Assembly: GCA_964016885.1 (NCBI GenBank)
Contig: OZ024740.1
Location: 349,556,001 to 349,620,000 of the forward strand
Origin: Eledone cirrhosa
Lineage: Eukaryota
Direction of reading: 5' to 3'
Length of the DNA stretch: 64,000 nt
This document shows, one piece after another, positions 133 through 31,619 of the stretch (its first letter is position 1; each line of letters opens with the position of its first letter). The position numbers were made by a program, and so were the translations under genes. The notes under the pieces were generated by a model that made no database searches, was not told the DNA's origin, and was given only the letters and a program-made list of their open reading frames with translations.

Positions 133-1443
133 TCATCATCATCATCATCATTTTACGTCCGCTTTTCCCTGCTTGCAAGGGTGGGACGGGTCTTATTCAG
201 CACAGCATCTCTCCACTTGTCACGGTCCCTCGTCATCTCCACCGTGAGCTTCAATGAACTGAGGTCTGTTCTCACCACCTCCGCCCATGTTTTTCGTGGT
301 CTACCTCTACCACGTCTTCCTTCAACTGGCAATTCCTGGCACTTCTTCACCCATCGGTCATCCTCCATGCGCATCACATGTCCATACCACCTCAGTCTCC
401 TCTCCCGTACACTACATTCTATCCCTCTCAGACACAGTTTCTCTCTCAACACATTTACACTGCACATCCAACGGAGCATGCTTGCCTCATTTCTCTCCAG
501 CCGTCGCATATCCTCTGCAGTTGCTGCCCATGTCTCACTACCATGCAGCATCGCGCTCCTCACACAGGCATCATACAACCGGCCTTTCGTACGCAGGGAG
601 AAACCTTTCTTCGTCAACAGAGGAAGCAGCTCCCAACCCGTCCTTATTCTAGATACTATGGCCTCGGAACACCCTCCTCCCATGCTAATCTGATCTCCTA
701 GGTACCAGAAGCTATCCACCACTTCTATAGCGCCCTCTTGCATTTGAAAAATGTGTCTATCAGTGTGACTTCTACTGTCTAATTTCCCTGTACATCTACT
801 GCATACATATTTCTCCCTACCTGTTAGTTTGCCTGCTATCCCGCTACATCTCTTGTGTACCCAGGATCTGCATTGTGTGCATTTTATAGAATTTATGCCA
901 GTTCCTTTTCTGCATACCAAACATGGCCATTTCCCTGACGGAATCAGGGTTTTGTCCTCTTTTCTACTCATCAACACTTTTGTCTTAGCTAGATTCACTC
1001 TCAGTCCTCTTGCTTCCAACTGCTGTTTCCATAGCCAGAATATATTCTCTAGCTCCTCTACTGATTCTGCTATAAGAACCAGATCGTCAGCATAGAGAAG
1101 TTCCCATGGACAGCCAGTCTTAAACTCCTCTGTTATAGCTTGGAGGACTATAATGAACAAGAGCGGGCTGCGGACCGAACCCTGATGTACTCCTACTTGT
1201 ACCTGGAATTCCTCACTAAACTCCATTCCTACCCTGACTTTACTGAGAGTACCTATGTACAAAGTTTGCACTGTCCTCACAAGCCATTCCTCAACACCTA
1301 GCTTCCTTAGGGACCACCAGATGACAGATCGGGGTACCCTATCAAAGGCCTTCTCTAGGTCAACAAAGGCTAAGTATAGTGGCTTATTCTTCTCTAAGAA
1401 CCTCTCTTGCAATTGTCTCACCAAGAAGAGGGCATCTGTTGTG
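133..1443 (-). mobile_element. RTE-clade LINE family A, 5'-truncated (RT + PHD-like finger + C-terminus), (GAT)n tail
   Basis: ORF 153-1457: [28 protein letters not shown] ends directly at the tail; small in-frame deletions relative to family B. Confidence 0.93.
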
Positions 1444-1590
1444 TATAATTTTGTCATTACTCTGATATGCCCAGTTCCTGGTTGGGTTGTTATTTCACTG
1501 AGTAACTGGAATCATATGATTCCAGTTCCTCAGTGAAATAACAACCCAACCAGGAACTGGACATATCAGAGTAATGACAAAATTATACAC
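1441..1590. repeat. 150-bp spacerless palindrome (75-bp arms, 2 mismatches)
   Basis: gtgtataattttgtc...ggaatcat|atgattcc...gacaaaattatacac, centre 1515/1516. Confidence 0.97.
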
Positions 1591-1630
1591 CTCAACAACA
1601 TATGTACTTGTCTATACCACACTAATTCAG

Positions 1631-1685
1631 ACTGCCTGAAGAGGTCACAGCCAAAGATGGCTGTCACTGAAATATATATAGCAGT
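1631..1685 (+). ncRNA. Type I hammerhead ribozyme (minimal, Penelope/retrozyme-like)
   Basis: actgc CTGAAGA ggtcacagcc-aaagat-ggctgtcact GAAA tatata TA gcagt, followed by aataaa. Confidence 0.8.
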
Positions 1686-2155
1686 AATAAACGAAGCTAA
1701 ATTTTAAACATTTGACTTTTTATTTAACTTTATTTTACATTACTCCGGAGTAACAAAACCAACCTGCGCACTTCGTCGAGTGCTCCAGCCTGCATACTGA
1801 GGTGTTGGTATACAACCAACATATACTCAAAATCTATATATACATATATATATATATATATACATATACATATATATATATATACATATATATACATATA
1901 CATATATATATATATATATATATATATACATATATATATATACATATATATATATATATATATATACATATATATATACATATATATATATATATATATA
2001 TACATATATATATACATATATATACATATATATATACATATATATACATATATATACATATATATATATATACACATATATATATATATACACATATATA
2101 TATATATACATATATATATATATATACATATATATATATATATACATATATATAT

Positions 2156-4044
2156 CCCAAAGTGTTCTTTTCATTTGCAAAAAAACACAAAATCACTGGC
2201 TCTACTGTTGGCCCTCTAATTGATGAAAATGGCACTCTTCAAGACAATGCTAAAACCATGGGTGAGATACTGCAGAAACAATACTGCTCTGTTTTCAGCA
2301 ATCCTGATATGGCCGATCTGGGCTGTATCGGCGATGTTACTCCCCATTACACCTTATCGGACATAACGTTTGGCGCCCCTGATGTCTTGGCGGCAATAAA
2401 GGAAATCAAGCATAATTCAGCAGTAGGTCCCGATAGGTTCCCTGCTTGTGTCTTGAAGGCGTGTCAACACCAACTTGCTTCTCCTCTTGCCAATCTGTGG
2501 CGGAACTCACTGGATGCTGGATATGTGCCAGAAAACCTTCTATCCCAGTCTGTTGTCCCAGTTTTCAAAAAGGGAAACAAATCCCTTGCCGTGAATTACC
2601 GTCCAATCTCACTCACCTCTCATATCATTAAGGTATTTGAGCGAGTGGTGAGATCGCGAATGACCCACTTCCTTGAGAGTAACAATATGCTGAACTCCAA
2701 CCAGCATGGATTCCGTAATGGAAGGGATTGCCTGACGCAACTACTGCATCACTTTGATGACATTTTGAGAGCCTTGGGAGAGGGTTCCAACACTGATGTT
2801 ATCTACCTTGATTTCAGCAAGGCCTTTGACAGGGTTGATCATAACATTCTACTGAGAAAGCTGTCCAATATTGGTGTCACTGGAAAGCTGCTGCAGTGGA
2901 TCAAGAGCTTCCTGTCAAACAGAACCCAACATGTTGTAGTTGAGGGAGTCAAATCAAGCCCAGCCAAAGTCAGTAGTGGAGTCCCACAAGGCACTGTGTT
3001 GGGCCCACTTCTCTTCATCATCTATATTAATGACATCACTGACATCATCAAACACAGCAACATTAAAATTTTCGCTGATGATTCCAAGCTCCAAAAGGTC
3101 ATCAATGGCGTGGATGACCGGATAAGCCTTCAGTCAGACCTACTGGCTGTTACCCAATGGGCAGAAAAGAACAACATGTTACTGAACGAAGACAAATTCG
3201 AACTGATCCACTTTGGAAAAGAGAATGCTCTGAAACTCCCGTACTCCCTTCCCTCCGGGGAAACTCTCGTGGCATCTAACAACATCAGAGACTTGGGAGT
3301 AACCGTGGACAGCAACATAAGCTGGACCACGCATATAAGCAGCAAAGTTGACATGGCCCGCAGAATGTGTTCCTGGATCCTCAGAACCTTCCAGTCGAGA
3401 GATTCCCGCACCATTATCCTTCTCTTCTCTACTTTCGCCCGACCACACCTTGAATACTGTTGTCCACTGTGGTCTCCCCACACGAAACAAAGTATCATGA
3501 AACTTGAAGCTCCTCAAAGGGCAATCACGAAAAAGATAGATGGCATGTCAGACCTTGACTACTGGGGTCGATTGGAAAACCTGAAACTTTACTCACTCCA
3601 ACGTCGCCGTGAGCGTTATATTATCTGCATGATGTGGAAAATGTTCCATCATCACTGCCCAAATGATGTTGGCATCGCCTTCAAGATACACCCAAGGCTT
3701 GGGCCCCGTGCTATCCGTCCCATTCAAAAATCTAAATCGCAACTCATAACAACAATACGGCACAATTATTTCACCTCAATCGGCCCTGCTCTCTTCAACA
3801 TCACACCAGGACACGTCAAAACAGAAACTGACCACACAAAATTCAAGAAGTCTTTGGACAAATTCCTCCAAGTAATCCCGGACAAACCACCCACACCCGG
3901 ATATGTCTCCGCAAACAGTAATTCTCTTCTCGAATGGGCCATGGTGCCCAAATCCTGAATTGAAAGACTTCGCCAGGTGGTGCTATTAAGTTAGACATGG
4001 CCTGGGCCAATACTGGCCAAAACATTTCAAAGTTATTCAAAGTT
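2156..4044 (+). mobile_element. CR1/L2-group non-LTR retrotransposon, 5'-truncated, uninterrupted RT ORF to 3958
   Basis: [38 protein letters not shown] motifs; short aagtta tandem tail; TA arrays on both sides. Confidence 0.9.
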
Positions 4045-29862: not shown

Positions 29863-30256
29863 CGAGGGTAATACCAAAAATAAGGTCCCCAAAGTGATGG
29901 GGACGCAGAGAAACTGTTCAGTACGGCTGTTGGCAACAATATTGTGATTGGTGCTTCCTTCACTCCCAAACAAGCATGCACGCGCTTCGCTGGGATGCTC
30001 AATCATGGCTTGGCAGCCGTTGAGAATGGAACTCCCGTTGAATGCTACCGCCAAGTGCGAATTTCGCGCAGTTATTATATAGAGGGCAATCCAAAAAGTA
30101 AGGTCTCCTTCCGAGGAAGACATGCGTAAAGATCAGCAGATCACTCTGGTTGCTCTCTGCATTTTGGTTCCTGAGGTTTCCCGAAGCACCATCCACAGGA
30201 TTTTAACGGAAAAGTTGCAATATCGGAAGGAGACCTTACTTTTGGGATTGCCCTCG
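29863..30256 (+). mobile_element. Mariner-derived deletion element with TA flanks and an extra internal TIR
   Basis: TIRs cgagggtaataccaaaaataaggtc / gaccttacttttgggattgccctcg; transposase remnant ITLVALCILVPEVSRSTIHRILTEKLQYRK. Confidence 0.82.
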
Positions 30257-30833
30257 TATATATATATATATATTTATTAAAATAACAGATTAAAGTTTAA
30301 GCAAAGAATCGCTACTCTCACCCTTAACGGTTCTTATATATTTGATATATATTTATCCTTATCGAGCCCTCTTTGGATTTTAGTCTTCAAATTTATTATT
30401 ATTACTATATATATATATAAAATAAAAATGGCGTAGACACTAGAATACATACAAAACAGCAGGGGAAACATGATAATAGTACCACTGATGGTATTAAAGA
30501 TGTGCAATGAAAGAACTTTGTTAGACTATATATATATATGTATTTATATCTGTATTTTTGACTGTTGGTCAGCCAGTGATGAACATTGATGGCCAAATAA
30601 ACTAACTATGGAGATATAAAAGATGCAGAAGCGAAAACCAACTAAAGAGTGAGTATGTTCTGTTATTATTTCTGGCATTATTATTACAACAATATGACCA
30701 TCCCCAAGTATAACAATATTTGTTTCGACAGACGATTTCATATCAAAAACCTTGCAAAACAAATTCATCGCCGTCATTATATATATATATATATATATAT
30801 ATATATATATATATATATATATATATATATATA

Positions 30834-30932
30834 TAGGGTGTCCCAAAAAATGTATACACACTTTGATTACCTCTACAAGCAATATATTTTTGAAAGCTGT
30901 TCAAGTGTGTTACATTTTTTGGGGACACCGTA
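30834..30932. mobile_element. Tc1/mariner-type MITE, about 100 bp
   Basis: TIR gggtgtcccaaaaaatgta / tacattttttggggacaccg, TA flanks. Confidence 0.75.
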
Positions 30933-31013
30933 TGTGTGTGTGTGTGTGTGAGTGTGTGTGTGTATGTATATATATATATATATATATATATATATATATA
31001 TATATATATAAGA

Positions 31014-31103
31014 TGTGTCCGAGGAACCTGTGAATCCAGAGTCAGGTCAATCCACACACAGGTCGCACCTCAAGCTGTTCACCGGGGAAACAATTGTAAC
31101 ACG
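31014..31103 (+). ncRNA. Degenerate type I hammerhead-like motif
   Basis: tgtgt CCGAGGA acctgtgaa...ttcaccggg GAAA caattg TA acacg, then aataaa; U4C change and stem II mismatches. Confidence 0.5.
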
Positions 31104-31619
31104 CAATAAATTGAGTTCCGATGCATGACTGATTTTTCGTTTTCCATTCTATATATATATATATTCATATATATACATTTGTTAGAGTGTGTAAGGATGT
31201 ATACATACAGACCTGTGTATACATACTACAATACCAGTTCTTTAAATGTTGTACCTTTACATATATTGATATTTTCATTGAGATGTCTGGAGTTTTGTCT
31301 TGGAAAGACATGAATGTGGTAAGTGATGATGGTATATAGATGAGATGTTACTAGTTAAGATCAGTAAGCCTACTATTCAACTTGGTACACCACATTTAAG
31401 GGAAATAGAATCTAGATATTATCATAGGATAGAATGCCCAATGCTTAAACCATGTCAATCGCAAACATTTTATTTTTTTTTTTTTTGCAGTCAAATAATT
31501 TAAGCTTGACCATTGGGCATTATAGCCTATAATAAAAATAATAATTTTCAACATCATTTAACCTGCACTTTTCCAAGGGTTGGATGTGTTATCACAGACT
31601 AAGTCTGTAATCAAGTGAG

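What the first reader, a model, noticed from the sequence alone, without database searches (positions are those of the whole stretch)
1441..31110. Set of unrelated short hammerhead-ribozyme elements inserted in TA microsatellites (solitary retrozyme/Penelope-like system)
Seen: intact-looking type I hammerheads at 1631, 4447, 6584 and 10930, plus degenerate ones at 27992(-), 29646 and 31014. They fall into five different sequence families. Each lies in a 140-430 bp non-coding insert in or next to (TA)n. Stem III is usually a short palindrome (tatata, tgcgca, ccgcgcgg, caattg; gagctc in a loop) and aataaa often follows. Known: Penelope-like elements and metazoan non-LTR retrozymes carry minimal type I hammerheads whose palindromic stem III allows dimeric cleavage. 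Inference: a diverse non-autonomous ribozyme-retroelement population that favours microsatellites, here as monomers or fold-backs rather than tandem arrays.
Basis: partly seen in the sequence, partly recalled or inferred. Interest (0 to 1): 0.8.

Follow-up and report, generated by a model that had tools for sequence, protein, structure and literature searches.

The report
Hammerhead ends of Hydra-clade Penelope retrotransposons
The hammerhead-ribozyme motifs are really there, and four of the five families are the short ends of known-type Penelope-like (Hydra-clade) retrotransposons sitting in TA repeats, with an estimated 100,000 such motifs in this genome and a near-strict end pattern that likely records how these elements copy themselves.

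Summary
Observation confirmed: four intact type I hammerhead motifs (cores at 1636, 4452, 6591, 10935) against 0.02 expected from shuffles, plus variant or broken ones at about 28050(-), 29653 and 31019. The interpretation needs correcting. Families A, B, C and E are the pLTR ends of protein-coding Hydra-clade Penelope-like elements (RT plus C-terminal GIY-YIG; stop-free 717- and 793-aa frames for B and C). Only D (a 487-nt tandem unit, no ORF found) is retrozyme-like. 27992(-) and 29646 are two arms of one inverted insertion. TA bias is real (23 of 24 motifs against 16% background), and the window is typical of the genome (about 40 motifs per Mb). Hydra elements with hammerheads in (TA)n, single and inverted truncated copies, palindromic stem III and the U3-A8 core are all published. 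What may be new is quantitative. In 72 of 78 head-to-head pairs one arm ends at a TA-like site just after the ribozyme and the other at a second site 70-110 nt further on. Short copies share a family-specific 5' end, mostly at an initiator-like motif and rarely at the cleavage site. Cleavage and expression are untested.

The parts
1441..1515 (-). Family A inverted arm (75 bp left; abuts an unrelated repeat on the left)
1516..1835 (+). Family A pLTR arm: fixed 5' end at CATATG, hammerhead, end site 1 (~1740), tail, end site 2, then (TA)n
1631..1685 (+). Hammerhead A: core CTGAAGA at 1636, palindromic stem III, predicted cut after 1680
4334..4356 (-). Family B inverted arm (end of tail, site 2)
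4355..4558 (+). Family B 3' pLTR piece ending at site 1 in (TA)n; 99% identical to the end of a young Hydra element with an intact ORF
4447..4540 (+). Hammerhead B: U3-A8 core TTGAGAA at 4452, full stem III, predicted cut after 4535
6441..6522 (-). Family C1 inverted arm with part of the tail
6522..6699 (+). Family C1 pLTR arm from CATATG to site 1; hammerhead 6584-6652, core 6591, predicted cut after 6645
10715..11077 (+). Family D monomer (site-2 junction to site 1) of a 487-nt ORF-less tandem unit; hammerhead 10930-11000, core 10935, predicted cut after 10995
27941..28799 (-). Family C2 left arm (site-1 end at 27941, broken hammerhead, 3' UTR continuing to 28799, interrupted by a dispersed repeat at ~28385-28564)
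29381..29845 (+). Family C2 right arm (degenerate hammerhead at ~29646-29712, tail, site-2 end)
30270..30405 (.).
31011..31152 (+). Family E pLTR piece: core CCGAGGA at 31019 (U4C variant), palindromic stem III, predicted cut after 31098, ends at site 1
5440..8021 (.). (TA)n-type microsatellite hosting the C1 insertion; other host tracts 1835-2155, 4044-4333, 4559-4640, 9678-10713, 30963-31010

Best explanation
The inserts are the hammerhead-bearing terminal repeats (pLTRs) of several Hydra-clade Penelope-like retrotransposon families lying in (TA)n, and they likely arose by endonuclease nicking of the microsatellite and reverse transcription started inside the element RNA. Shown: four families are contiguous with RT/GIY-YIG coding sequence elsewhere; copies end at one of two TA-like sites; inverted pairs nearly always use one of each; D is a 487-nt tandem unit with no ORF found. 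Inferred: the element protein nicks both strands of (TA)n; each nick primes on the uncleaved RNA, one at site 1 (20-80 nt after the ribozyme cut site) and one at site 2 (end of the tail); the two cDNAs join head to head. When priming happens in the 5' pLTR of the transcript, both cDNAs would run off at the RNA 5' end, giving the abundant 130-320 bp copies with a fixed 5' end. The ribozyme is predicted to process tandem or read-through transcripts, probably as a dimer in A, C, D and E, and seems not to make the insertion template. D is likely mobilised in trans by a Hydra protein from a circular or multimeric RNA.
For: B ends are 98-99.5% identical to the 3' end of elements with long open frames; L130 reads inverted arm, tail, ORF (717 aa), 3' UTR, hammerhead, tail. 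C1: endonuclease C-terminus upstream on the same strand in 15 of 30 position-ordered loci, and a stop-free frame of 793 aligned aa in L389. C2: 12 of 30 loci (L354). A: endonuclease upstream in 1 of 9 long copies examined (L219/L351). E: pLTR, tail, broken Hydra ORF in L255. The B, C1 and F proteins carry the Hydra motifs given in PMC8557442 section 11 (RW-, DKT, CxCX5C, CxxC and CxH). TA bias 23 of 24 against 16%. Site-1/site-2 pairs 72 of 78, 10 of 10 in evenly spaced stretches, 6 of 6 in an independent position-ordered sample. 5' ends within 3 nt of the cut site: B 4 of 77, F 0 of 48, C 0 of 23, in line with uncleaved RNA as template in PMC11167929. Stem II covaries in a related motif group (7 of 9 pairs with two-sided changes).
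Against: No cleavage or expression data: the one RNA run held only a 134-bp piece of the 3' UTR. The link to an ORF rests on one locus each for A and E, both with broken frames. No partner was found for D. No tree with reference Hydra sequences was built; clade assignment is by motifs. Local Pfam gave no RT or GIY-YIG hit; only the best database relative has a precomputed GIY-YIG domain. PMC11167929 found initiation at sites not homologous to the cut DNA and no strand difference in start site, so TA-assisted priming and the one-site-per-arm step are my inference. D breaks the pair rule (1 of 4 classified pairs in the unbiased set). Single-strand folds are not more stable than shuffles except A.
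Confidence: 0.88

Rival explanations
1. The short copies are non-autonomous elements in their own right (mini-PLEs or retrozymes) that amplify from their own short transcripts, using Hydra proteins in trans.
For: Short copies share a fixed 5' end (A 22 of 40, B 37 of 50, C 10 of 21, E 16 of 41, F 17 of 49 within 12 nt) and dominate: 50,438 exact matches to the B 3' half, 26 of the first 30 without the 5' half of the ribozyme. D is clearly of this kind (11 of 30 loci in direct partial tandem).
Against: Fold-back junctions differ from copy to copy, so no single master was copied. Short-copy sequence variants match those of long copies. Most short B copies lack half of the ribozyme, so they cannot be retrozymes.
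Confidence: 0.25
2. The inverted structure arises by snap-back or self-priming of one nucleic acid strand (for example on an antisense template, as proposed in PMC3846280), not by two priming events at opposite nicks.
For: Many junctions are palindromic (CATATG centre in A; 29 of 72 pairs have equal 5' extent). PMC3846280 proposes self-priming for such palindromes.
Against: The site-1 arm reaches further 5' than the site-2 arm in 21 of 72 pairs and the reverse holds in 7. Snap-back of one tail-primed cDNA cannot give a longer site-1 arm.
Confidence: 0.15
3. The motifs are decayed passengers of dispersed repeats with no ribozyme activity.
For: No activity data. Metazoan PLE hammerheads cleave weakly in vitro (PMC4209133) and 8 of 9 tested Xenopus dimers did not cleave (bioRxiv 10.64898/2026.07.22.740005). 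Window copies of C2 are broken.
Against: Cores are kept across about ten unrelated families. B keeps U3 and A8 together while N7 varies as G, T, A or C across subfamilies. Stem II covaries.
Confidence: 0.07

Closest known systems
Hydra-clade Penelope-like elements (Craig et al. 2021, PMC8557442; includes Hydra-1_Obim from Octopus bimaculoides)
   Same: Single ORF with C-terminal GIY-YIG, RW-/DKT/CxCX5C/CxxC/CxH motifs, no CCHH, canonical hammerhead near the 3' end, (TA)n targets, inverted 5'-truncated copies, tail at one end.
   Different: [quoted passage not shown] Here at least six divergent proteins (35-69% identical) and tens of thousands of copies occur. Tails are 70-110 nt rather than 30-40. 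The elements with long 3' UTRs exceed 3 kb. None of the five motifs matches the listed Hydra-1_oBim hammerhead by eye.
Minimal PLE hammerheads (Cervera and de la Pena 2014, PMC4209133)
   Same: Single motifs from truncated PLEs, pairs on opposite strands 100-700 bp apart, palindromic stem III, U3-A8 core variant.
   Different: B and F have full stem III hairpins; F has a U4A core and part of E a U4C core.
Poseidon from Anolis, PAc (Frangieh et al. 2024, PMC11167929)
   Same: Two internal start sites that define the tail; AT-rich targets; both strands cut and extended; uncleaved RNA as substrate.
   Different: Here both sites are TA-like and match the target, and inverted pairs use one site each; PAc starts were non-homologous to the cut DNA with no strand difference.
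Non-LTR retrozymes (PMC7229834; bioRxiv 10.64898/2026.07.22.740005)
   Same: Family D: ORF-less 487-nt unit, 37% GC, type I hammerhead, direct partial tandems, PLE-like ends.
   Different: No array beyond about two units seen; no circular RNA shown; A, B, C and E are parts of coding elements.

Membership tests
Type I hammerhead ribozyme | Core CUGANGA / GAAA / UH with stems I-III in type I order | tested here: met
   (A, C, D canonical; B with the published U3-A8 pair). Core kept in A 53 of 56, B 32 of 37, C 23 of 32, D 34 of 36 copies; E 12 of 37 canonical.
Type I hammerhead ribozyme | Compensatory changes in stems | tested here: met
   on 18 motifs of a related group from this genome, not the window's families, and picked by a descriptor that favours pairing. 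Window families are too uniform for a test, apart from one two-sided change between A and a sister.
Type I hammerhead ribozyme | Site-specific self-cleavage | not testable with these tools
   No RNA reads over a motif.
Hydra-clade PLE | Single ORF, RT followed by C-terminal GIY-YIG endonuclease | tested here: met
   B 717 aa, C1 793 aa, F 709 aa without stops. A and E broken or partial. Domain names from motifs and from P0001's precomputed PF01541; local Pfam found none.
Hydra-clade PLE | RWK-like motif, DKT, CxCX5C linker, CxxC and CxH, no CCHH | tested here: met
   against PMC8557442 section 11; RWR or RWI in place of RWK.
Hydra-clade PLE | Hammerhead in the pLTR; insertion into (TA)n | tested here: met
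Hydra-clade PLE | RT phylogeny with reference Hydra elements | not tested
   Reference proteins were not obtained.
Non-LTR retrozyme (families A, B, C, E) | No coding capacity; tandem units | tested here: not met
   Contiguous with Hydra ORFs.
Non-LTR retrozyme (family D) | ORF-less short unit in direct tandem, each with a hammerhead | tested here: met
   487-nt unit, longest stop-free frame 96 codons; 11 of 30 loci in direct partial tandem; two hammerheads in tandem in L108/L235.
Non-LTR retrozyme (family D) | Expressed as circular RNA | not testable with these tools
   No RNA data for D.

The most novel reading that the evidence does not exclude
One Hydra protein-RNA complex primes twice on the same RNA, from nicks on opposite strands of (TA)n, at two TA-like sites flanking the tail, and both cDNAs run to the transcript's 5' end. 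The genome would then hold tens of thousands of fossil intermediates that map each family's start site and both priming sites to the base, and explain the PLE inverted-repeat-with-one-tail structure. Family D would be a retrozyme riding this machine.
Probability: 0.4. Interest if true: 0.7.

Novelty: new member of a known kind. Interest (0 to 1): 0.42.

Why it matters
As annotation it is ordinary: new families of a described PLE clade. Two things raise it. First, scale: a clade described from a few low-copy families supplies an estimated 60,000-195,000 intact-looking hammerheads here, with young intact ORFs that could be purified. Second, how PLEs make inverted repeats with a tail at one end is named as an open question in PMC8557442. 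The near-strict one-site-per-arm rule and the fixed 5' ends give precise predictions for the in vitro assay of PMC11167929.

Tried and rejected
Rfam scan: no hammerhead model among the listed matches; the MIR821 match at 1441-1590 is the perfect fold-back and the mir-297-type matches are TA repeats. Local Pfam did not recognise the ORFs. A search with the C hammerhead alone returned nothing, probably because its words are too common; a tight upstream pattern was used instead. The sequencing-run search gave one RNA run with a 0.05 share; laying it covered no hammerhead. The steep rise of summed contig depth over the last 120 bp of B in run X2 is not a copy number and is not used as evidence. 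Amplification of one master fold-back was rejected because junctions vary. Cleaved RNA as main template was rejected. A Hydra endonuclease ~790 bp upstream of a D copy (L256) was not accepted as D's partner, because unrelated and inverted sequence lies between them. The extra descriptor hit at 11309 was treated as chance and not followed. Earlier findings of this scan: none returned. One flank listing was garbled by my repeat compression and cut; D was redone.
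Full report
Setting. The window is G000:C1:349556001-349620000 of a 3.0-Gb animal assembly. Its TA-rich repeats resemble an octopod genome; that is recalled, not tested.

1. Observation. A type I hammerhead descriptor found the four named motifs (cores 1636, 4452, 6591, 10935) and one weak extra at 11309; 98 of 100 local shuffles gave none and 2 gave one. 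Rfam showed no hammerhead among 150 listed of 183 matches. The degenerate copies are present. The B core TTGAGAA is the family norm (32 of 37 copies UUGANAA), and U3 and A8 stay together while N7 is G, T, A or C in other subfamilies. U3-A8 is a published natural variant (PMC4209133 passages; PMC3088659 passages). The E core CCGAGGA is a subfamily variant (19 of 37, query-biased).

2. All five are dispersed repeats. First-look candidates: C 747, A 2311, B 125, D 2688, E 2648, 40 scored each. Exact patterns gave 1,595 long C1 copies and 50,438 copies of the B 3' half, reversed controls 0. In 60 evenly spaced 10-kb stretches the descriptor found 24 motifs (21 canonical cores, 3 CAGAAGA) of about ten families; five shuffles gave 0, 1, 1, 0, 0. 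That is 40 per Mb, about 120,000 in the genome (bootstrap 60,000-195,000). The window (4 in 64 kb) is typical. 23 of 24 have (TA)5 within 200 nt downstream, against 16% of random positions.

3. Four families are ends of coding elements. B: of 14 longer stretches fetched, most hold pieces of one ORF; L130 has an inverted arm, the tail, a 717-aa ORF, a long 3' UTR, the hammerhead and the tail again. C1: the endonuclease C-terminus lies upstream on the same strand in 15 of 30 position-ordered loci, and L389 has a stop-free frame. C2: 12 of 30; its protein is 69% identical to C1's. A: 11 of 30 loci fetched with the hammerhead part alone extend further 5', and 1 of 9 examined reaches the endonuclease. 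E: L255 reads pLTR, tail, broken ORF. The proteins show RW-, DKT, YRDD, CxCX5C, CxxC and CxH and lack CCHH, the Hydra definition in PMC8557442 section 11. Database relatives are about 40% identical and unnamed. Local Pfam gave nothing. The supplement of PMC8557442 lists Hydra-1_Obim with (TA)n preference and hammerheads for the clade.

4. D differs. It is a 487-nt unit with no ORF. In 11 of 30 loci the unit is preceded or followed by another unit in direct orientation, starting at scattered points. No D copy among the 60 loci (some the same place) ran on into coding sequence. This fits a non-LTR retrozyme as described in PMC7229834 (passages) and in bioRxiv 10.64898/2026.07.22.740005 (parts 1-3 of 5 read), which derives retrozymes from PLE pLTRs.

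5. End anatomy. Copies end at one of two TA-like sites: site 1, 20-80 nt after the predicted cut, or site 2, 70-110 nt further on. Among head-to-head pairs with both ends classified, 137 of 144 have one of each. Leaving out loci fetched with queries that could favour an arrangement, 72 of 78 (p about 1e-15 against independent choice); 19 further pairs had an unclassified end and were dropped. D gave 3 of the 6 exceptions. In the evenly spaced stretches it was 10 of 10; 64 of 72 have TA at both ends. A position-ordered B sample gave 6 of 6. The site-1 arm reaches further 5' in 21 pairs, the site-2 arm in 7, equal in 29, unresolved in 15. In the window, B, C1, C2 and F are such pairs. A tail at one end is published qualitatively (PMC8557442 Fig. 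2 legend; PMC3846280 passages), and PMC11167929 (parts 1-2 of 4 read) ties it to two internal start sites.

6. 5' ends. They rarely fall at the cut site (B 4 of 77, F 0 of 48, C 0 of 23, E 1 of 6, A 0 of 5, D 0 of 1). They cluster in one 12-nt window per family: A 22 of 40, B 37 of 50, C 10 of 21, E 16 of 41, F 17 of 49, but D only 4 of 35 (both arms of a pair may be counted). The modes sit at TT|AGT in B and F and TC|ATAT in A and C, which resemble the initiator consensus (recalled); E's is unclear. Penelope has an internal pLTR promoter with an initiator (PMC2377424 passages). In B the cluster lies in loop II, so 26 of the first 30 matches carry only the 3' half of the ribozyme (my pattern scored 27, one more has the 5' half by eye). 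Junctions vary from copy to copy.

7. Mechanism. Shown: coding partners, TA bias, two end sites, the pair rule, fixed 5' ends. Inferred: nicks on both strands of the self-complementary (TA)n each prime on uncleaved RNA, one per site; the cDNAs meet head to head; priming in the transcript's 5' pLTR gives short copies ending at the start site. A stall of RT at a structure, or short non-autonomous transcripts, would also give fixed ends. The ribozyme likely trims tandem transcripts; dimer action for palindromic stem III follows PMC4209133. Stem II covariation was shown on 18 motifs of a related group (97.5% of cells paired, 7 of 9 pairs with two-sided changes, 0 of 500 shuffles as high for three of five measures), with the caveat that the descriptor selected paired stems. 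No RNA evidence was found.

8. Novelty. Identity, target, structure and core variant are known. In seven paper searches and the passages read, I found no count of the one-site-per-arm rule, no fixed 5' ends at initiator-like motifs, and no hammerhead census for a cephalopod; a 2026 Octopus vulgaris repeat paper has no mention of ribozyme or Hydra (PMC13282606 passages). Supplementary figures of PMC11167929 and PMC4209133 and subscription papers were not seen and may cover these points. Verdict: new members of a known kind; interest 0.42.

Noticed in passing
L165-L194, L257-L259; window 30270-30405: Family F, another Hydra family: 82,543 first-look protein candidates (all Hydra-like families together), many 713-aa stop-free frames, and a hammerhead with a U4A core (CAGAAGA) and a full stem III as the family norm.
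   Followed up: partly
L165, L166, L172 against the other loci of L165-L194: The F 3' UTR has an apparent intron of about 700 bp (GTAAGT...AG); 3 of 30 genomic copies lack it at the same junction, the others keep its start. Spliced and unspliced RNAs both seem to have been retrotransposed.
   Followed up: partly
alignment A2; window 1643-1668, 6598-6633: Stem II of families A, C and the related group keeps a C-C or C-U mismatch at its fourth pair while neighbouring pairs covary; possibly a tertiary contact.
   Followed up: no
window 4514-4529 and B copies: In B the 3' strand of stem II can also pair with the 5' strand of stem III, an alternative hairpin close to where short copies begin.
   Followed up: no
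L385-L389, L354: C1 and C2 ORFs carry an asparagine-rich insert between RT and endonuclease, like the N-rich inserts described in PMC3846280.
   Followed up: no
window 20718-20959 and 21563-21766: Two further fold-backs (242 and 204 bp); sequence like the first occurs next to another hammerhead family in L242, so it may be a PLE end without its core.
   Followed up: no
window ~2160-3960: A long reverse-transcriptase-like reading frame between TA tracts, LINE-like by eye; no tool was run on it.
   Followed up: no
window 11304-11435: Extra descriptor hit with TTGATAA core and very long loops; treated as chance.
   Followed up: no
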